A DNA stretch of 64,000 bases, taken from a virus. Taxonomy: Duplodnaviria; Caudoviricetes. Positions 2,806-62,890 of this stretch are shown one piece after another. Each line of letters opens with the position of its first letter. The stretch's first letter is position 1. Location of the stretch: positions 7,655 through 71,654 of the IMG/VR virus record IMGVR_UViG_2834148589_000001; one strand, given 5' to 3'. The notes beneath the pieces are model-generated. The model did not search any database. It saw nothing but the letters and a program-made list of their open reading frames with translations, and was not told the origin of the DNA. The position numbers and the translations under genes are program-made.

Positions 2806-4860
2806 TTACCTCCTGATCAGACGCGCGAAGGCATCTTTCGAGTTCGTTGGTTTGTCGTCTTCGCTACGCGTTGTCGTTTCGACGGGCAGACGTGGCATTG
2901 CTTGCTCAGACAGCGGGACATGCGGGTCGGCGGTAACGGCAGTGACTGTGCTTGCTGGAAGATCGAACAGGTCCGGCTGCCCCTCAGGCGGCGCAATGCT
3001 CCGTTCCAATTCCAGTTGGCCCCATTGTTGATCTGTCATCGCGGCCCAACCCTTTTTGCGGGCGGCGGCCTCGGCATAATTCATGGCGTCGAGGCATTCG
3101 TTGCGCCGGGACGGTTCGACCAGTTCCCATTTCGACGTCATCGCGCCCGAGGACGCGCGCTTCAGCACCCGGACCTCGGACGTGATCTGCCGGAAGTACT
3201 CGTCGCCCAGCCCGGTCGCGAAGGCGACGTATCCGCGTCCTTCGGGATCTTCCTTCGCAAGCCAGCCGTAGAAATCGGCCTTAAGCTGACTCACGTTCAC
3301 GACCCAGCGGCGCTTTTGCCGTTTCGCGACCCGTCCGTTTTCTTTCCGGGTGGATTGCGGTTGCAGCACTGGCCCGTTCGCGCTGCTTGCCCCCTTCACC
3401 GTGATCACTCGGGTAAAGGGGTGCGACTTTGCCCAGTCGAGCACATCCGCCGTGAACGAACCCTCGTCGACGGCCATCATGTCGAGCGGGAGCTCCAGCC
3501 CGAGCGTCGTCCTCCAGGTCGATTTCAGCAGCGCGTTGAGCGCCGCGCGGCCCTCTTCGTCGCCGATGTAATGTGGGATCACCCGATGCTCGACGACCCA
3601 GCGCCGCAGGTCCCGACCGAAGGCGACGATCGAGACCTCGATACGGTCCCCCTGGAAATCGACGCCGGCGGTCAAGAGGACCCCGGACGCTGGGACGCGA
3701 CCCAGCGGCAGCACTGTCTCGGGCTCCGCATTCTCGACGCGGTCGCGCAGCTTTTCCCAATCCGGCCCCTTGCTCGCCTGCTCGTAGGGAAGGCCCAGCA
3801 CATCGTTCCAGAAGGTCTGTTCGGTCTCGACCTCGACCTTGTCCCGGGCTTCCTCATCGGTCTCGACCCGGGCCTGCACCCCGGTCCAGCCCATGACTTG
3901 GGCGTATTCGACCGCGATCGACGCCCAGTCCCGCTGCGGGACATAGGCCCGCCACAGGTGGAAACCCGGATGATCGCCGTGCGGGTTGTGCGCAACCCAG
4001 TCTCCCGCCGCCACCATCACGCGCTTGTCGGCGTGGTTGATGACGGCGCCGCAGGAATCGCAGCTGAAGCACGCCGCCCCAAGGCGCTCGGGGTCGAGGT
4101 TCTTGCGAAAGTTCTCCCAGGTCAGGGGCGCGCGGTGCCCGCAATGCGGGCAAGGCACATGGTAGTGTCGCTGGTCCGAGCGTTTGAACGCCCGGGTCAC
4201 GCGGCAGGTGCCCTGGATCTGCGGCGTCGAGATCCGCACGATCTTGGCTTCCTCGAAACCAGAGGCGCGGCTTTCGGCCAGCTTCTCCGGGTCGCCCTTC
4301 GGCGTCATTTCGAACTTCGCGACATCGTCCATCAGCACGAGGCGGCGCGTCGTGCCGGCAAGGTCGTCGGGCGATCCCGCGCTCACCACCTTCAGGGTCC
4401 CGTCGCGGCGCAGGGTTTCCTGGTTGTGCAGCGTGTCGGTCTGGTCCCCGCGCCCCTCGCCGAAGATCTCGACGAGGCTGGGAGCCTGCCGGCGAATCGG
4501 CATCCATTTCGTGCGGACCCATTCGGTCGCCGCCGAGCTGGTCGGGTGAACCACGAGGCTGTCGAGCGGGCCGTATTCGTGCCAGGCGGCCAGTGTCGGG
4601 ATCAGGACCGAGACGGTCTTGCCCCATTGCGCCGACCCGCGCAGCGTGACCTCCCGCGAGGGATGCTCCGGGCTCAGAACCTCGTGCACCTCGCGCAGGA
4701 ACGGAAACAGCGAAATATCGAACTTGCCGGGAAACGGCGAGCGCGCATCGAACTCGATATTGTCGGTACACCAGCGGGTGATGTCTGGTGGCAACGGCGG
4801 TTGCATGGCCTGCGCCATCCCGCGGAGGATGGCGGCTTCGGCCGATGACAGGAAACCCAT
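2806..4860 (-). CDS. Terminase large subunit, GpA family
   Basis: Walker A SAQWGKT, ISTP, CPHCG zinc motif, GVDFQ, RNECLD. Confidence 0.95.
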   Translation of the reverse strand: MGFLSSAEAAILRGMAQAMQPPLPPDITRWCTDNIEFDARSPFPGKFDISLFPFLREVHEVLSPEHPSREVTLRGSAQWGKTVSVLIPTLAAWHEYGPLDSLVVHPTSSAATEWVRTKWMPIRRQAPSLVEIFGEGRGDQTDTLHNQETLRRDGTLKVVSAGSPDDLAGTTRRLVLMDDVAKFEMTPKGDPEKLAESRASGFEEAKIVRISTPQIQGTCRVTRAFKRSDQRHYHVPCPHCGHRAPLTWENFRKNLDPERLGAACFSCDSCGAVINHADKRVMVAAGDWVAHNPHGDHPGFHLWRAYVPQRDWASIAVEYAQVMGWTGVQARVETDEEARDKVEVETEQTFWNDVLGLPYEQASKGPDWEKLRDRVENAEPETVLPLGRVPASGVLLTAGVDFQGDRIEVSIVAFGRDLRRWVVEHRVIPHYIGDEEGRAALNALLKSTWRTTLGLELPLDMMAVDEGSFTADVLDWAKSHPFTRVITVKGASSANGPVLQPQSTRKENGRVAKRQKRRWVVNVSQLKADFYGWLAKEDPEGRGYVAFATGLGDEYFRQITSEVRVLKRASSGAMTSKWELVEPSRRNECLDAMNYAEAAARKKGWAAMTDQQWGQLELERSIAPPEGQPDLFDLPASTVTAVTADPHVPLSEQAMPRLPVETTTRSEDDKPTNSKDAFARLIRR

Positions 4861-56629: not shown

Positions 56630-57385
56630 ATGGCTACGAAGAACACCAGTGTTTCACTGCAGATCGACGCCCTGAAGCAGGGGCGCGTGACGCTCAAGAT
56701 GATCGGCACCACCGGCCTTTACTTCAACGCGATGAGCGCCAAGGCGAAACGGACGCTGCTGATCGGCGGGGGCAAGAAAACCGCTGCGGAAAAGCGAGAA
56801 TTGAAGCACGATCCGCAGACCGAGTATCGTGACAGCGTCTATCGCCTGCCAGACGGCCCGACGCTGCTGGGCTTCCCGGCGCCGGGTGTGAAGGGCGCGA
56901 TGGCGACAGCGGCGCTGGAAACGCCGGGGGTCACGAAAAGCAGCGTTCAGAGACTGATCTTCCTGCCCGAACAGAAGATCAAAGTCTGGGGGCGCCCCTA
57001 TCTGAAATGCGACGTGGTCCGCAGCGCCGACATGGCGCGGACGCCGGACGTTCGGACCCGGGCTTTCCTTCCGCGCTGGTGCGCCGAGGTCGATATCGCC
57101 TTTATCACGCCGACGCTGAGCATCCACAGCATCATTTCGCTGCTGTCCAACGCGGGCGTGATCGTCGGAATCGGCGATTTCCGGCAGGAGAAGGGTCGTG
57201 GCAGCTACGGGACTTTCGCCGTGGCGACCGAGGATCTGGGCGACTGGCAGGAGACGTGGGACGATATCACGGCAGAGGGCCGCGATGTTCAGGAGGACGC
57301 GCTGGCGAACCCGGCGGCGGCTGACGATGACACCGCCGAGCTGCTGGCGATGCTTGAGGAAGAACGCATCCGGCGCGCCGCCTGA
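56630..57385 (+). CDS. Stand-alone Cas7/RAMP-like protein (VIPR-like effector candidate)
   Basis: N-terminal beta strand MIGTTGLYFN, FPAPGVKGAM helix, C-terminal Gly-rich loop GIGDFRQEKGRGSYGTF; AGGAG RBS. Confidence 0.75.
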   Translation: MATKNTSVSLQIDALKQGRVTLKMIGTTGLYFNAMSAKAKRTLLIGGGKKTAAEKRELKHDPQTEYRDSVYRLPDGPTLLGFPAPGVKGAMATAALETPGVTKSSVQRLIFLPEQKIKVWGRPYLKCDVVRSADMARTPDVRTRAFLPRWCAEVDIAFITPTLSIHSIISLLSNAGVIVGIGDFRQEKGRGSYGTFAVATEDLGDWQETWDDITAEGRDVQEDALANPAAADDDTAELLAMLEEERIRRAA

Positions 57386-57433: not shown

Positions 57434-57626
57434 GGCGGTCACGATTAGGCAAGGTCTGGCGTGGAAGCGCGAGGCGGGGCGAGGCTTGGCGGTCATGGCA
57501 TGGCAACGCCTGGGAAGTCGCGGCTCGGCCTGTCGGTCTAGGTGTGTTTAGACAAAGCGAGGCTCGGCGTGGCCAGTCGGTCATGGTTAGGAATGGCGAA
57601 GCTCGGCAAGCTTTGTCCTGGCGGTC
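57434..57626 (+). ncRNA. GGY/NN pentamer array 1 (4 units; putative guide RNAs)
   Basis: GKCGGTC delimiters at 57434, 57488, 57532, 57576 and 57620; unbroken 5-nt phase between them. Confidence 0.8.
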
Positions 57627-57645: not shown

Positions 57646-58131
57646 ATGGCTTTCAAATGGAAAGAACGGCAGGCGATCATCGACGGTTATCTGGCCGAGA
57701 CTGGTCGTAACCAATTTCACCCTGCCGAGTTTATCGACTGGTTGGGCGGAAAGCCCGATCACGAGGCGTATCCTTGGTTCTTCGGGACCGATGATGCCAC
57801 GGCGGCGCGGGAGCATCGCATCTCGCTCGCCCGGCGCATGGCTTCCGGCCTGCGTCTGACGGTGAAGGTCGAGGAGACGAAGTACACCGTTGCTTCGGTC
57901 GCGGTGCGCGAGTTCCCGGCCTACGTTTCGCCGGTTGCCGGTCGCAAGGCCGGTGGCGGCTACGAGCCCTTCGATCCGAAGGACAAGGCCGCGATGGCGG
58001 AGCTTCGTCGCCAAGGTGTCGTCGCGCTGCAATCGTGGTTGCGCCGGTACGCTGGTGCGTTCGCAGATGTCGATCTGTCGGCAATCGAGGAAATCGCGGC
58101 TGAAGATAGCCGTGTGGCGCTGTCCGCATAG
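57646..58131 (+). CDS. Partner protein between the two arrays
   Basis: AAGGAG RBS at end of array 1; HEAYPWFFGTDDATAAREHRISLAR. Confidence 0.8.
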   Translation: MAFKWKERQAIIDGYLAETGRNQFHPAEFIDWLGGKPDHEAYPWFFGTDDATAAREHRISLARRMASGLRLTVKVEETKYTVASVAVREFPAYVSPVAGRKAGGGYEPFDPKDKAAMAELRRQGVVALQSWLRRYAGAFADVDLSAIEEIAAEDSRVALSA

Positions 58132-58150: not shown

Positions 58151-58294
58151 GGCGGTCGAGGCGGGGCTCTGCATGGCAAGGTGTGTCACGGCGAGGCGGT
58201 CTAGGTGAGGCGAGACTAGGCAAGGCGTGATGCGGCTGGGTCTGGCGGTCTAGGCCCGTTTGGGCGCGCTTAGGATGGACACGGCGGGGCGGTC
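58151..58294 (+). ncRNA. GGY/NN pentamer array 2 (3 units; putative guide RNAs)
   Basis: GGCGGTC at 58151, 58195, 58244 and 58288; same grammar as array 1. Confidence 0.8.
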
Positions 58295-58321: not shown

Positions 58322-58349
58322 GATCGGCCTGCCATGTGGTGGGCCGATC
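58322..58349 (+). terminator. Hairpin closing the cassette
   Basis: GATCGGCCTGCC-ATGT-GGTGGGCCGATC; no U-tract. Confidence 0.45.
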
Positions 58350-58364
58350 CGCATGGAGAACCGC

Positions 58365-58802
58365 ATGGCACCACGCACAAACTTGTCGGTTGCCCTCGCG
58401 GCTTACCGTGACGAGAACAAGCCGAAAATTCGGTTCGTATACAATGAAGCAGTGCAGGACGTGATCGAGGCGGCGCAGACACCGCAGCGCGCGATCTCAG
58501 CGGGGGCGGAGACGTTCGAGGTCGGAAAGATCCCGGTGGCCAGCACCGATCTGATCAACTCGCTGCACCTCGGCGCCACCAAGATCGGCGGAGACTTCAC
58601 CGCGGTTATCGGCCTGATCGAGCCGGGCACGATCCAGACCTTCGAATGGCAGCAGCCCTATGCAGCCCGGATCGAGTTCGGCTTTTCGGGCACCGACGAG
58701 TTGGGGCGCGAATATGAGCAAGCCGGGCGCTTTTTCGTCGGCGCAAACGCGGTCCGGTTCCCTGAGTTCGTGGAAAAACACAAGCGCGAGGTCGGCCTGT
58801 GA
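58365..58802 (+). CDS. HK97 gp10-like neck/tail-completion protein
   Basis: IPVASTDLINS, PYAARIEFG, AGRFFV; position before tail terminator. Confidence 0.75.
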   Translation: MAPRTNLSVALAAYRDENKPKIRFVYNEAVQDVIEAAQTPQRAISAGAETFEVGKIPVASTDLINSLHLGATKIGGDFTAVIGLIEPGTIQTFEWQQPYAARIEFGFSGTDELGREYEQAGRFFVGANAVRFPEFVEKHKREVGL

Positions 58803-59277: not shown

Positions 59278-59739
59278 ATGGACCTGCAATCCTATATCGG
59301 CGCGACCCTGAGCATCGCTGCCGGCTCTTTCCCGGCCACCGAGGATAAATCCGGGTATGAAGGCGAAACCTACGAGCCCATCGGCAAAATCCTGAGCATC
59401 GGCGAGATCGGCGATCAGCATGCCGCCATCGAGATCGCCACGCTGGCTGGTCGTAACATCCGTGTCGTCGGCATCGCCGATGGCGGGGCGGTCGAAGTCG
59501 TGCTGGCTTTCGATGAGGAAGATGCTGGCCAGACTGATCTGACGAGCATCAACGGGTCAAACACCATGTCGGCATTCCGCATCGTTGATCCGGCACCGGC
59601 TACGGCCCAGAAGGTGGTTTACTTCGGCGGCTTGGTAGCGAGCCTTCGCGACAACGCCCGCACGCCGACGAACTATCGCGGTAAAGCCTTCCAGCTCTTC
59701 GTAAACACCGCCGTTCTTCGCACCACCGCTGCGGCGTAA
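59278..59739 (+). CDS. Major tail (tube) protein
   Basis: IGEIG, DAGQ, VYFGGLV; position. Confidence 0.75.
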   Translation: MDLQSYIGATLSIAAGSFPATEDKSGYEGETYEPIGKILSIGEIGDQHAAIEIATLAGRNIRVVGIADGGAVEVVLAFDEEDAGQTDLTSINGSNTMSAFRIVDPAPATAQKVVYFGGLVASLRDNARTPTNYRGKAFQLFVNTAVLRTTAAA

Positions 59740-60719: not shown

Positions 60720-62890
60720 CCACGCAAGCCGGTTACATCGCGCTGATCGCGGACAGCTCCTCCTTGCCGAAGGCGGAGAAGAACCTCGACAGCCTTGCTG
60801 CCACCGGCGAGCGCACCGAGCGGCGCGTCGTCGGGTCCATGGATAATGTGTCCGGCAGCATCAACCGCGTCGGCATGTCCTCGGGACAACACACGATGGC
60901 GATGCGGAACCTCGCGTTCCAGCTTAACCAGATCGGCCAGCAAGGCGCTGTCACCGGCAACTATCTCGGCGCCCTCGCCATCCAGATCCCGGACATCCTG
61001 TCGTCCTTCGGCAGCTTGCCGCTGGTCCTTGCCGGTGGCGCGATTGCGGTCGGTGCCTCGCTGGTCCCGTCGCTGATCAGCGGAAGTAATGCCACGGCTG
61101 ACTTCGATGATGCCCTCGATGAACTCGACGCGCAGATCCGCTCGGTGCAAGACGCGATCGAGGGGCTTTCAACATCGCGCCTGCAGGAACTCTTTGGGGA
61201 TGCCTCTGAGGATGCAAGGGCGCTAGCCCAATCCGGTCTGGAGATCAGCCTCCGCCGGCAAGCCGACGCTGCGCGCGCCTTGACCGAGGCGTTGCTGTCG
61301 ACTGACAACGGCTTCGGCCTCAGGAACAGGGCGCGCGGGGAGATCCTCGGTTCCGGCTTGGATGCGTCTACCGACGAACTGAACCGTCTATCCCGCGCCA
61401 TGCAGGACCTCGCCGCCGCTGATGGTATCGATCAACAGGTGGAGGCCGCAGAAGCTTTCCGCGACTTGATCGTGAGCACCTTCGGGCCGGTCGAGGGTAT
61501 GACGAGCAGGCAATTTGAGCTGTTCACGATGGTGGCGGATACCGAGCGCGCATGGCGCCGGGTTCGAGCTTCTGTCGATGACGCGGAGAGCGGCCAAAGC
61601 GCCGCCGCGCGCCGTCAGATCGCGGATGCCAGGACGATCATCGAGCAGAACGAGGCGAACGCCGAACTGATGAGGGCCGTCGCCACTTATGGCGAAGATA
61701 GCGCGGAAGCCGATGCCGTGCGTCGTGACCAGGCACTGGCAGCGACCGAGGCCTATATCGACCAGCACGAACTGACCGGCGATATTGCTGAGCAGTTGCG
61801 CGCATCGGCGTCCGCTGCGTTTGATGCCGAGGTCGGCGCGCGTGCCGCAGCGGAAGGCCTTTCGGAGGCAGAGCGCGCGGCCCGTGCCCTCGCCAATGCG
61901 ATGGCCGCTGCGGCTGGGTTCTCTGTCGGCATCGAAGGGCAGATCGCAACCGTTCGGGCCCAGATCGACGCTTTGGGGCGCGGACAGGATGCCGCAACCG
62001 CCGGGCGGATCGAGAGCCTGCGGCAGGAAGCTTCGGCGCGTCGGGATGCGGTTCTGGAAGCGGCAGCGGGTGACGATGAAGCCCGCATGGCGGCCGAGGA
62101 GCGGTATCAGGCCGATCTGCAGAACATCGGCATCCTCGGCGAGGAGATGGAGGCGCTGCGCGCGCTCCAGCAGGTCCAGCGCCAGGGTGGCGCGGCGTCC
62201 CGTCGCGAGCACAATGAGGCCATGCGCGAAGCTGAGCGCGTCATCCATGACATCCGTACCGAAACGGAGCAGTACGCGGCGGAAGTTGCAGACCTGAATG
62301 AGCTTCTTGAGCAAGGTTACCTCACCCAAGAGCAGCATGCCCGGGCCGTGGCGATGGTGCGCGATGAATACCTTGGCCTTGAAGAAATTCAGGACACGCT
62401 GAAGGACGCAATCCTCGACTTCGCTGAAGGCGGGGAGGACGCGATGGAGAACCTAGGGCGTGCGATCCGTCGGGCGGCCCTAGAGGCGCTACTGTTCGGC
62501 GAAGGGCCACTGGCGAATTTCTTCGGCGGAGGCGGGCTTCTGAGCGGGTTGCTTGGCAGCATCACCGGGGGTCTTCGAACTGGTGGCGGGAAAGCGACTG
62601 GCGGCAGTGTGACCACCGGCACCATCTATCCAGTCAACGAGAACACGACCAACACGGAATGGTTCGCTCCAGCGGTAGCCGGCACCATCCTGACCGACGG
62701 CCAAGCGCAAGGCGCAGTTCGCGGTGGCGGCTCGTCCGTGGTGAACATCAACGTCAATGTCGACGGCGCCAACGGCGACCAGCACGTCATGGATCTCGTC
62801 GCGCAGGGCGTCCGAACCGGCCTCAGCCAGTACGACCGCGCGCTTCCCGTCCGAATGAAGCAGATCCAAGCTAACCCGAGGAGGCGCTGA
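60716..62890 (+). CDS. Tape measure protein
   Basis: NLAFQLNQIGQQ, Ala-rich helical body, C-terminal KATGG..YPVNE. Confidence 0.9.
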   Translation: MTTQAGYIALIADSSSLPKAEKNLDSLAATGERTERRVVGSMDNVSGSINRVGMSSGQHTMAMRNLAFQLNQIGQQGAVTGNYLGALAIQIPDILSSFGSLPLVLAGGAIAVGASLVPSLISGSNATADFDDALDELDAQIRSVQDAIEGLSTSRLQELFGDASEDARALAQSGLEISLRRQADAARALTEALLSTDNGFGLRNRARGEILGSGLDASTDELNRLSRAMQDLAAADGIDQQVEAAEAFRDLIVSTFGPVEGMTSRQFELFTMVADTERAWRRVRASVDDAESGQSAAARRQIADARTIIEQNEANAELMRAVATYGEDSAEADAVRRDQALAATEAYIDQHELTGDIAEQLRASASAAFDAEVGARAAAEGLSEAERAARALANAMAAAAGFSVGIEGQIATVRAQIDALGRGQDAATAGRIESLRQEASARRDAVLEAAAGDDEARMAAEERYQADLQNIGILGEEMEALRALQQVQRQGGAASRREHNEAMREAERVIHDIRTETEQYAAEVADLNELLEQGYLTQEQHARAVAMVRDEYLGLEEIQDTLKDAILDFAEGGEDAMENLGRAIRRAALEALLFGEGPLANFFGGGGLLSGLLGSITGGLRTGGGKATGGSVTTGTIYPVNENTTNTEWFAPAVAGTILTDGQAQGAVRGGGSSVVNINVNVDGANGDQHVMDLVAQGVRTGLSQYDRALPVRMKQIQANPRRR

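What the first reader, a model, noticed from the sequence alone, without database searches (positions are those of the whole stretch)
58434..58456. Unit 3 read as NN-skip-NN matches the adjacent gp10-like gene at 14/16 positions, in codon register
U3 is TA GT TA AA GA TC GT CA. The gene reads TTc GTa TAc AAt GAa GCa GTg CAg (FVYNEAVQ). The skipped base is the wobble position, and a perfect target would encode Y-V-Y-N/K-E/D-S-V-Q/H. The site is 140 bp past array 2. Inference: the guide targets this gene's homologue in related phages, insensitive to synonymous escape, while the resident allele escapes through two mismatches (or is weakly autoregulated). Caveat: a rough uniform-composition estimate gives about 0.2 chance hits of this quality for 7 guides on both strands of 64 kb, fewer for an AT-rich guide in GC-rich DNA. 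My search was manual and incomplete.
Basis: partly seen in the sequence, partly recalled or inferred. Interest (0 to 1): 0.8.

Follow-up and report, generated by a model that had tools for sequence, protein, structure and literature searches.

The report
VIPR guide nearly matches neighbouring phage gene
A resident virus carries a recently described RNA-guided gene silencer (VIPR), and one of its seven short guides almost matches the virus's own neighbouring head-tail connector gene, most likely because it is aimed at that gene in closely related rival viruses.

Summary
Unit 3 of array 1 (57532-57575) carries eight NN pairs. Read with one skipped base, they match 58434-58456 at 14 of 16 positions, in codon register, 140 bp after array 2. 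It is the only hit with two or fewer mismatches for any of the seven guides in the window, and the only one for U3 in the 4.49 Mb genome. Shuffled U3 guides reach it in 0.25-0.56% of trials; the expectation for all seven guides is about 0.05 per window.

The system is a known kind: VIPR, described in three 2026 bioRxiv preprints. An earlier agent of this scan already filed the locus as VIPR.

- No 16/16 site was found in any homologue.
- 90 of 90 DNA homologues score 13 or less.
- The closest protein homologue (76% identical) must score 15/16.
- Both resident mismatches are conservative changes away from common family residues.

Context helps. U7 matches the major tail gene of related phages at 16/16 or 15/16. 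U5 and U3 fall on the same phage lineage. A related VIPR locus has a guide that matches rivals' vipr at 16/16 and its own at 14/16.

Odds: guide aimed at kin phages with a spared self site about 0.55; chance about 0.25.

The parts
56630..57385 (+). vipr gene: solo RAMP (Cas7-like) protein, 251 aa
   Evidence: Translation. phrog_4652, E 8e-12. AlphaFold model with pLDDT 75.7 and pTM 0.73. Best Foldseek PDB matches are Csm3/Cas7 chains: E 4.1e-5, and 26 hits at E<=0.001. Weak sequence match to PDB chain 36pp_D 'SUSP1 Vipr protein': E 0.092 alone, 0.03 with a profile. 214 relatives in IMG/VR.
57434..57626 (+). vrRNA array 1: units U1-U4 (54, 44, 44, 44 nt), delimiter G[GT]CGGTC, NN pairs every 5 nt
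   Evidence: Parsed. The same grammar gives 353 units in 76 of 80 related loci.
57532..57575 (+). Unit 3 (U3), the guide in question: eight NN pairs TA GT TA AA GA TC GT CA
   Evidence: Its scaffold is 4/7 GGY, which is within the family's range: 37% of 262 unique units have 4/7 or less.
57646..58131 (+). vap-like accessory gene between the arrays, 161 aa
   Evidence: Translation. Weak phrog_15946 match. Homologue present in 73 of 80 related vipr loci.
58151..58294 (+). vrRNA array 2: units U5-U7 (44, 49, 44 nt) plus closing delimiter
58244..58287 (+). Unit 7 (U7): guide with clear targets in the major tail gene of related phages
   Evidence: Hits in a 482 kb panel of related loci: 16/16 in L061, 15/16 in 14 loci, 14/16 in 3. 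The null gives 0.05 hits at 2 mismatches. Sites are antisense and in wobble register (P-V-Q/E-Y-A-Q-G-Y).
58365..58802 (+). head-tail connector gene ('gp10-like', tail completion/Neck1-like), 145 aa
   Evidence: Translation. phrog_169, E 3.9e-4. No Pfam family for it or for 37 homologues. Followed by a tail terminator (PF13554) and a major tail gene. One source names a homologue 'HK97 gp10 family phage protein'.
58434..58456 (+). near-cognate U3 site, 14/16, codons 24-31 (FVYNEAVQ) of the connector gene
   Evidence: The site ends at Q31, which is invariant in 38 aligned sequences (the window's protein plus 37 homologues), at the start of the most conserved N-terminal block.

Best explanation
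The locus is a prophage-borne VIPR system: a solo RAMP protein (Vipr), an accessory gene and two staggered vrRNA arrays. U3 is most likely a working guide. Its natural target would be the conserved N-terminal site (perfect form Y-V-Y-N/K-E/D-S-V-Q/H) of the head-tail connector gene of closely related competitor phages.

Vipr protomers would line up on the scaffold triplets and present the eight NN pairs. These pair with codon positions 1-2 of the target, skipping each wobble base, and block transcription of the rival's tail operon.

The resident allele is a near-cognate copy (14/16). It differs by two conservative amino-acid changes, Phe for Tyr and Ala for Ser. These are the only kind of change that can weaken a wobble-blind guide, so the prophage probably spares its own gene.

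Shown: the parse, the match, its rarity, its register, the better match of the closest homologue, real targets for U7, and the in-family precedent. Inferred: that U3 is expressed and loaded, that a 16/16 allele exists in nature, and that two mismatches prevent binding.
For: (1) Rarity. It is the only hit with 2 or fewer mismatches for any of the seven guides in 64 kb, and for U3 in 4.49 Mb. Shuffled-guide expectation is 0.0025-0.0056 for U3.

(2) Register. The site is in wobble register on a real gene, as published natural targets are. A chance-looking 14/16 hit of a foreign A+T-rich guide at 62352-62374 is out of register (my arithmetic on the 60716 start).

(3) Homologues. The closest one, P0005, must score 15/16.

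(4) Direction of the mismatches. Both point to common family residues: the guide's NN1 encodes Tyr (108 of 127 sequences; the resident Phe occurs in 4 of 127), and NN6 encodes Ser (67 of 127). Every guide NN occurs in some homologue.

(5) Same array set. U7 hits the major tail gene of related phages at 16/16 (1 locus) and 15/16 (14 loci), against a null of 0.05 at 2 mismatches. In L003, L005 and L022, U7 (15/16), U5 (14/16, in register, in an ORF that looks to me like a KilAC-type antirepressor; the label is recalled) and U3 (13/16) fall on one phage lineage.

(6) Precedent. A guide in the related locus L106 matches the vipr gene of 4 other loci at 16/16 and of 18 at 15/16. It matches its own vipr at 14/16, where Ser is coded AGC.

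(7) Literature. The literature uses >=80% NN match as the criterion for natural targets. It also reports self-match scores lower than non-self scores as a way to avoid autoimmunity (bioRxiv 10.64898/2026.10.15.759431, section 8).
Against: - No 16/16 target in the gene family. 90 of 90 DNA homologues score 13/16 or less, so the resident allele is the best DNA match seen. 128 of 138 protein homologues cannot exceed 13.
- An exact-pattern scan of IMG/VR gave 7 hits, no more than two permuted controls (4 and 13), and none in a connector gene.
- The family-wise chance of such a hit in the window is about 0.05, not negligible.
- Near-self hits are not a general habit of this VIPR family. Only 1 of 256 unique guides has a >=87.5% hit in its own locus, against 0.55 for shuffled guides.
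- Published surveys found no self hits at >=80% on source contigs.
- Guides of 76 related loci do not favour connector-gene loci: 21 of 262 have a hit, against 24 for shuffled guides.
- P0005's contig could not be fetched, so its 15/16 rests on residues, not DNA, and I cannot say whether that phage lacks a cassette.
- The sub-clade holding the resident allele has only two sampled members.
Confidence: 0.55

Rival explanations
1. The match is a coincidence. U3's real target, if it has one, lies in an unsampled element. The 14/16 site in the neighbouring gene, and the 13/16 sites in its homologues, follow from one lucky match plus protein conservation.
For: - The family-wise expectation is about 0.05 per window.
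- Rare chance hits do happen. One A+T-rich guide from another locus has a 14/16 hit in this window although none of its 150 shuffles gave a hit, and 3 other-locus guides have apparently chance hits against 1.85 expected.
- An in-frame 16/16 hit exists in an unrelated Streptomyces-type phage contig.
- No 16/16 connector allele was found.
- Scores in homologues simply fall with distance from the resident allele, as homology alone predicts.
Against: - The U3-specific expectation is 0.0025-0.0056 per window and 0.18 per genome, and the single genome-wide hit lies 140 bp from the array.
- The site is in wobble register.
- Both mismatches point to the commonest family residues. By my estimate this has about a 1 in 9 chance if the guide letters were arbitrary.
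- The closest homologue improves the score.
- U7 and U5 show that this array set does aim at phages carrying this gene module.
Confidence: 0.25
2. The near-cognate site is itself functional. The Vipr-U3 complex binds the resident gene weakly. It acts as a brake on the prophage's own tail operon, either helping to keep late genes silent in the lysogen or timing them after induction.
For: - 14/16 is 87.5%, above the >=80% NN match that the literature accepts for natural targets.
- It is close to the 89.2% mean match reported for SUSP1 guides on their satellite target.
- The site sits 69 bp into the first gene after the cassette, where a roadblock would affect the terminator, major tail and tape-measure genes downstream.
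- L106's guide also has a 14/16 site in its own vipr, which could be read as feedback.
Against: - The published surveys I read saw no self hits at >=80%.
- A second paper treats lower self-match as the way autoimmunity is avoided.
- The guide is one step closer to a relative's allele than to the resident one.
- The L106 guide matches other loci perfectly, which fits rival-targeting better than feedback.
- Only 1 of 256 related guides shows a near-self site.
- I found no mismatch-tolerance data in the main texts. Supplements were closed and not seen.
Confidence: 0.12
3. U3 is a decaying or retired guide. It once matched an ancestral connector allele, and its scaffold and target have since drifted, so it no longer acts.
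For: Three of U3's seven scaffold triplets depart from GGY (GTT, GAC, AGC). GAC and AGC are rare in the family, at 1.2% and 0.4% of triplets. No perfect target was found.
Against: 37% of 262 related units have a GGY share of 4/7 or less. U7, which has perfect natural targets, has only 3/7. GTT is a common family variant at 12%. Unit length and delimiters are intact.
Confidence: 0.08

Closest known systems
VIPR systems (Vipr protein + vrRNA; SUSP1 and P. fulva type II systems), bioRxiv 10.64898/2026.04.26.720920 and .720927
   Same: - A solo RAMP protein next to an accessory gene, flanked by arrays of pentanucleotide scaffold/NN repeats.
- Phage-borne.
- Targets read by the one-base-skip rule, with the skipped base on the wobble position, on either strand.
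- Targets in competing mobile elements.
   Different: - The Vipr protein is only faintly similar in sequence to SUSP1 Vipr (E 0.03-0.09).
- The units are short (mostly 6-10 NN) and separated by a 7-nt delimiter that shifts the phase by one base. There is no long pseudoknot tail.
- The scaffold consensus is G-[G/T]-Y.
- Here one guide has an 87.5% match on its own contig. The paper's surveys did not see this at >=80%.
Staggered vrRNA arrays (legend of fig. S18 of 10.64898/2026.04.26.720920)
   Same: [quoted passage not shown] That fits the head-to-tail units with a one-base phase shift seen here.
   Different: I saw only the legend, not the figure or the type assignment. Processing sites were not tested here, because no RNA runs were listed.
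Solo vrRNAs of SUSP1-family phages that target relatives' vipr or vrRNAs, with lower self-match (bioRxiv 10.64898/2026.10.15.759431, section 8)
   Same: A guide aimed at a gene family that the carrier also owns, with self scored lower than non-self. The L106 guide is a direct parallel (rivals' vipr 16/16, own 14/16). The U3 case is a candidate parallel (closest relative 15/16, self 14/16).
   Different: The gene here is a structural connector gene, not vipr or a vrRNA. For U3 the non-self advantage rests on one homologue and one position, and most homologues score lower than self.
SUSP1 vrRNA4 on the satellite recombinase (10.64898/2026.10.15.759431, section 6)
   Same: A short guide (six units there, eight here) reads near-invariant codon-determining positions of a conserved protein segment, so synonymous change cannot give escape.
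   Different: There the target is conserved across 119 satellites and silencing was shown by experiment. Here only 10 of 138 homologues could reach 14/16 or more, and nothing was tested at the bench.
Phage-encoded CRISPR arrays and self-targeting spacers (recalled general knowledge, no call)
   Same: A mobile element carries guides against competitors. Near-matches to the carrier's own genome raise the question of autoimmunity versus regulation.
   Different: There is no cas1/cas2, no contiguous spacers and no PAM. Recognition is gapped, and the reported outcome is silencing, not cleavage.

Membership tests
VIPR system | A solo RAMP-fold Vipr protein (RRM core, G-rich loop, thumb) without other cas genes | tested here: met
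   The model of P0002 (pLDDT 75.7, pTM 0.73) matches Csm3/Cas7 chains best: Foldseek E 4.1e-5, 26 hits at E<=0.001. Weak sequence match to PDB 36pp_D 'SUSP1 Vipr protein', E 0.092 alone and 0.03 with a profile, over the G-rich loop region. I did not check individual loops or the thumb residue by residue.
VIPR system | vrRNA arrays of tandem 5-nt units: a conserved GGY-type triplet alternating with hypervariable NN | tested here: met
   Seven units in two arrays. 353 units with the same delimiter and 5n-1 spacing in 76 of 80 related loci, with 262 unique NN strings. Triplets are GGC 40%, GGT 27%, GTT 12%. No guide like U3 or U7 recurs elsewhere.
VIPR system | An accessory vap gene beside vipr | tested here: met
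   The 161-aa gene between the arrays has homologues in 73 of 80 related vipr loci. Its function and its vap class were not determined.
VIPR system | Natural targets found by the one-base-skip rule, with skipped bases on wobble positions, in competing mobile elements | tested here: met
   U7: 16/16 in 1 related phage locus, 15/16 in 14 and 14/16 in 3, against a null of 0.05 at 2 mismatches. The sites are in register in the major tail gene. For U3 itself: 14/16 self, 15/16 in one homologue, no 16/16.
VIPR system | vrRNAs are transcribed, processed and bound by Vipr | not testable with these tools
   No sequencing run could be listed for the stretch.
VIPR system | RNA-guided binding of double-stranded DNA that silences transcription | not testable with these tools
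   This needs a reporter, EMSA or phage assay.
VIPR system | Carried by a phage or prophage | tested here: met
   The cassette lies next to connector, tail terminator (PF13554, E 4.7e-10) and major tail genes. Relatives of vipr were found in 214 IMG/VR stretches.
Self/non-self discrimination by lowered self-match (as reported for SUSP1-family solo vrRNAs) | The guide scores higher on rivals' alleles than on the carrier's own allele | tested here: inconclusive
   For U3, 1 of 138 homologues is certainly higher (15/16), 2 possibly, and 135 equal or lower. 90 of 90 DNA homologues are lower. For the L106 guide the pattern is clear: 22 other loci score higher than self.
HK97 gp10-like / tail completion (Neck1) connector proteins (the target gene's family) | Significant match to the family profile, and a position between head genes and the tail terminator | tested here: inconclusive
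   phrog_169, E 3.9e-4 over residues 81-144 only. No Pfam family for any of the 38 sequences scanned, the window's protein included. The synteny fits. One source names a homologue 'HK97 gp10 family phage protein'.

The most novel reading that the evidence does not exclude
The 14/16 self site is not a harmless near-miss but part of how the system works. One form: this VIPR grades its action by kinship, silencing the connector/tail operon of near-identical superinfecting kin while binding its own copy weakly, as a built-in brake on late genes. The other form: the resident Tyr-to-Phe and Ser/Ala differences are fixed escape substitutions, a visible trace of an arms race in which a wobble-blind guide forces amino-acid change in a structural gene.
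Probability: 0.15. Interest if true: 0.7.

Novelty: new member of a known kind. Interest (0 to 1): 0.42.

Why it matters
VIPR was described only in 2026, and experiments so far concern E. coli and Pseudomonas systems. This locus belongs to a large, diverse, untested branch in phages of marine alphaproteobacteria: 214 relatives in IMG/VR, with short staggered units.

It offers a compact natural test case for a question I did not find answered in the main texts I read: how many NN mismatches separate self from target. Two natural examples in one family place self at 14/16: U3 on the connector gene and the L106 guide on vipr. Rivals sit at 15-16/16.

If two mismatches out of sixteen decide between sparing and silencing, that sets a working specificity rule for VIPR as a tool. 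It would also explain how prophages aim such guides at their closest kin without harming themselves. If instead the match is chance, the case is a useful warning that 80-88% NN matches of 16-position guides occur by accident at a measurable rate.

Tried and rejected
- **Contiguous match.** The 16 guide letters read without gaps have no match with up to 2 mismatches in the window.

- **L011.** It holds an in-frame 16/16 site (YVYKESVQ) in a G+C-rich IMG/VR contig. I rejected it as a target. The gene follows a tape measure gene, and its 33 tblastn relatives are all Streptomyces (32) or Thermobifida (1) phages. Two permuted control patterns gave 4 and 13 exact IMG/VR hits against 7 for the true pattern. 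The other 6 true-pattern hits are in A+T-rich contigs, and 5 of them have stop codons inside the site in register.

- **Other guides.** Exact IMG/VR scans for U1 and U6 found nothing. U2 and U4 were not scanned. In the genome, U5 has 4 hits with 2 or fewer mismatches against 1.43 expected. Two of them lie in one housekeeping GTPase gene (mnmE-like by its motifs; the label is recalled). I read them as chance.

- **Relatives' genomes.** No homologue of the connector protein was found in 100 related genomes with this query.

- **Guides of related loci.** They show no excess of hits on connector-gene loci: 21 of 262 against 24 shuffled. No U3-like or U7-like guide occurs elsewhere.

- **Real guides as decoys.** 4 of 61 foreign 16-position guides hit the window with 2 or fewer mismatches, against 1.85 expected. 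One of the four is the real vipr-targeting guide, so the decoys are not a clean null.

- **Pfam.** It gave nothing for the connector family. The profile's best PDB sequence hit, EpiD at E 0.0025, is on an unrelated fold, and I set it aside.

- **Sequencing runs.** None was listed, and no RNA holder was listed.

- **Mismatch tolerance.** A search of the three VIPR papers' main texts found no quantitative data. They may hold such data (figs S12-S13 and data S3 of the first paper, Supplementary Fig. 3A of the third).

- **Rows dropped.** 5 of 96 loci (the window's own locus L001 among the 96) were left out of the DNA site count, because the site was not covered or was gapped. Of 418 profile hits only the best 120 were listed, so about 298 weaker homologues were never scored.
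Full report
**What is there.**
The finding concerns a 23-base stretch (58434-58456) in the first gene downstream of a small cassette.
- The cassette holds a 251-aa gene (56630-57385), a G-rich repeat array (57434-57626), a 161-aa gene (57646-58131) and a second array (58151-58294).
- The arrays are built from units bounded by G[GT]CGGTC. Inside each unit, two variable letters alternate with a G-rich triplet every five bases.
- The unit lengths are 54, 44, 44, 44 and 44, 49, 44 nt, all of the form 5n-1.

- With one skipped base between NN pairs, U3 matches the + strand at 58434-58456 at 14 of 16 positions.
- The gene starts at ATG 58365. Homologues aligned over the whole N-terminus support this start, whereas a gene caller had started it at a later GTG.
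- The site therefore covers codons 24-31 (FVYNEAVQ), and every skipped base is a wobble base.
- The site begins 140 bp after the last delimiter of array 2.

**How rare is it?**
- The pattern search found this single hit, and 0 of 100 shuffled windows gave any.
- My exhaustive scan of all seven guides on both strands found no other hit with 2 or fewer mismatches. It found only two at 3 mismatches (U5, U7), which is the chance level.
- 2000 NN-block shuffles per guide give mean hits of 0.0025 for U3 and about 0.05 for the seven together. 5000 letter shuffles of U3 give 0.0056.
- In the whole 4.49 Mb genome this is U3's only hit, against 0.18 for shuffles.
- As a further control I used real guides of other loci. 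4 of 61 hit the window with 2 or fewer mismatches, against 1.85 expected. One of the four is a true vipr-targeting guide. One A+T-rich guide hits the tape-measure gene out of codon register.
- So the match is unusual (about 0.003-0.006 for this guide, about 0.05 for the set) but not proof by itself. Rare accidents of this size do occur.

**What the system is.**
The scan's own notes pointed to VIPR, and I checked it.
- Three 2026 bioRxiv preprints describe VIPR: a solo RAMP protein (Vipr), an accessory gene (vap) and vrRNAs of alternating GGY and NN. The NN pairs read double-stranded DNA with every third base skipped. The skipped bases fall mostly on wobble positions, targets lie on either strand, and the outcome is transcriptional silencing of competing phages and satellites.
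- What I read: for 10.64898/2026.04.26.720920, the Results and two Methods sections. For 10.64898/2026.04.26.720927, the abstract and outline. For 10.64898/2026.10.15.759431, sections 6, 8 and 17.
- The 251-aa protein folds with fair confidence (pLDDT 75.7). Its best structural matches are Csm3/Cas7 subunits (E 4.1e-5).
- Its only hint of sequence likeness to a solved Vipr is weak: chain 36pp_D, E 0.092, or 0.03 with a profile.
- IMG/VR holds 214 relatives. In the best 80, the same delimiter grammar yields 353 units (262 unique NN strings) in 76 loci. A homologue of the 161-aa gene is present in 73.
- The scaffold consensus in this branch is G-[G/T]-Y. U3's 4/7 strict GGY share is ordinary: 37% of units have that or less, and U7 has 3/7.
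- The head-to-tail units with a one-base phase shift fit the 'staggered arrays' named in a figure legend of the first paper.
- The locus is thus a member of a known kind. An earlier agent of this scan had already filed it so.

**Does U3 aim at the connector gene of relatives?**
I gathered homologues in four ways:
- 4 loci from IMG/VR;
- 80 from metagenomes;
- 11 from species genomes, nearly all Rhodobacterales by their record titles;
- 138 proteins from the large protein collection.

Results:
- At the homologous site, 90 of 90 DNA homologues score lower than the resident allele. Seven score 13/16 (YVLNEAVQ or YALNESVQ) and the rest 6-12.
- All these DNA homologues are at most 56% identical.
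- Codon positions 1-2 follow from the residue except for Leu, Ser and Arg, so I scored proteins directly.
- The closest relative, P0005 (76% identical), reads YVYNEAVQ and must score 15/16. Two proteins (YVLNESVQ) lie between 12 and 15. Seven reach at most 14, and 128 stay below 14.
- No YVYNESVQ allele was seen. A search seeded with P0005 found no further close relatives.
One homologue, the nearest, is better.

**The direction of the two mismatches is informative.**
- Guide NN1 (TA) encodes Tyr. That is the family's usual residue (108 of 127), and the nearest relative has it. The resident Phe is rare (4 of 127).
- Guide NN6 (TC) encodes Ser (67 of 127), against the resident Ala (57 of 127).
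- Both resident differences are single-base, conservative amino-acid changes at read positions. For a guide that ignores wobble bases, this is the only route of escape.
- If the guide letters at the two mismatches were arbitrary, I estimate about one chance in nine that both would spell the commonest family residues. This is an inference, not a computed test.
- NN3 (Tyr) is shared only by the resident and P0005 (2 of 127). The guide's best fit is thus the resident's own small sub-clade. That follows from how the match was found, and I do not count it as extra evidence.

**Context from the same arrays.**
- U7 has unmistakable natural targets. In the 482 kb panel of loci that carry a connector homologue it matches 16/16 once (L061), 15/16 in 14 loci and 14/16 in 3. 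The sites share one position on the antisense strand, in wobble register. The shuffled expectation is 0.05 at 2 mismatches.
- The gene sits two places downstream of the connector gene, at the major tail position.
- The resident major tail gene has no such site. U7's best hit in the window is a chance-level 13/16 elsewhere.
- U5 matches an in-register site at 14/16 in L003, L005 and L022. The ORF looks like a KilAC-type antirepressor (my recollection of the motif, not a test).
- These same loci carry U7 at 15/16 and U3 at 13/16. Three of seven guides therefore fall on one phage lineage, much as published vrRNA sets converge on one competitor.
- This raises the prior that U3's gene family is a real target. 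However, the 13/16 scores are not independent of the resident match.

**An in-family precedent.**
- Among 256 unique guides of related loci, only one has a >=87.5% match in its own locus (0.55 expected).
- That guide, in L106, reads a conserved YGTFAVAG site of vipr. It matches four other loci at 16/16 and eighteen at 15/16. It matches eighteen at 14/16, among them the window's vipr at 57206-57228 and its own vipr.
- In its own vipr the Ser is coded AGC, which puts both mismatches in one NN.
It agrees with the third preprint's report that self-match scores are lower than non-self scores.
- It suggests, but does not prove, that 14/16 is tolerated as self in this branch.

**What speaks against.**
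- No perfect target, and the best DNA match is the resident allele itself.
- The family-wise chance is near 0.05.
- Near-self sites are not a family habit.
- Guides of related loci do not favour connector loci.
- Published surveys saw no self hits at >=80%.
- The perfect in-frame hit in L011 shows what chance can produce in a large collection.
- I found no mismatch-tolerance figures in the main texts, and the supplements were closed. Whether 14/16 is bound therefore remains open.

**Verdict.**
- I put about 0.55 on U3 being a working guide aimed at the connector gene of close kin, with the resident allele spared by two amino-acid differences.
- I put about 0.25 on coincidence, about 0.12 on a functional self site (a brake on the prophage's own tail operon) and about 0.08 on a retired guide.
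- The thing belongs to a known kind (VIPR), and even the self/non-self idea is in print.
- What is new is the instance: an untested alphaproteobacterial branch, and two natural cases that bracket self at 14/16 against targets at 15-16/16.
- Interest is moderate.

Noticed in passing
L106:4841-4884 (guide) and L106:4580-4602; window 57206-57228: A guide of a related VIPR locus targets the conserved YGTFAVAG site of vipr genes. It scores 16/16 in 4 other loci and 15/16 in 18. It scores 14/16 in 18, including its own vipr (Ser coded AGC) and this window's vipr.
   Followed up: yes
window 58244-58287 (U7); L061:2525-2547, L004:5256-5278 and others: U7 matches the major tail gene of related phages at 16/16 (1 locus) and 15/16 (14 loci), antisense and in wobble register. 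The resident major tail gene (59278-59739) lacks the site.
   Followed up: yes
window 58151-58194 (U5); L005:7745-7767, L003:4092-4114, L022:4092-4114: U5 matches an in-register site (DGSEKVTE) at 14/16, with both mismatches in one NN. The ORF looks like a KilAC-type antirepressor (label recalled, no family search run). The same phage lineage is hit by U7 and U3.
   Followed up: partly
L125:2243-4156: A related cassette (vipr 77% identical, with vap and array) sits directly upstream of a connector gene that is only 39% identical to the window's. The cassette seems to keep this insertion site, or to move between phages, while the structural genes diverge.
   Followed up: partly
L014:7966-8379: A metagenomic phage contig with a connector homologue (about 54-56% identical) also carries a vipr that is 81% identical, about 3.6 kb downstream of that gene. 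The locus ends before any array, and the record could not be extended.
   Followed up: partly
L178 (unit at 3781); L114:949-971, L115:205-227, L116:910-932 and 8 more loci: A guide of L178 matches 11 other VIPR-bearing loci at 16/16, at a site about 1-2 kb upstream of their vipr in the three loci shown. It has no self hit. The target gene was not identified.
   Followed up: no
L110, L115, L116, L117, L118, L122 (59-nt units): One 11-NN guide recurs with small variations in at least six related loci, unlike the otherwise hypervariable guides. Its target was not sought.
   Followed up: no
window 58365-58457: The wobble bases under the U3 footprint are A/T-rich (4 of 8 G/C by my count) in a window of about 65% G+C. 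A gene caller's product (116 aa) implies a start at GTG 58452, inside the footprint, whereas homologues support ATG 58365. The scan has a separate note on this stretch (e1-6203976).
   Followed up: partly
L184:1486-2109 (Gordonia phage UmaThurman gene 39); L185:1303-2049 (Mycobacterium phage BobaPhett gene 52): The Vipr protein has 29-34% identical relatives, annotated as hypothetical proteins, in 30 actinophage records. In UmaThurman the gene lies near the immunity repressor and an 'excise' gene, and in BobaPhett near an excisionase gene. I did not look for arrays there.
   Followed up: no
window 58322-58349: A 13-nt inverted repeat (85% complementary, 2-nt loop) lies between array 2 and the connector gene's ribosome-binding site. 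L125 has a G+C-rich hairpin at the same place. This may be a cassette terminator.
   Followed up: no
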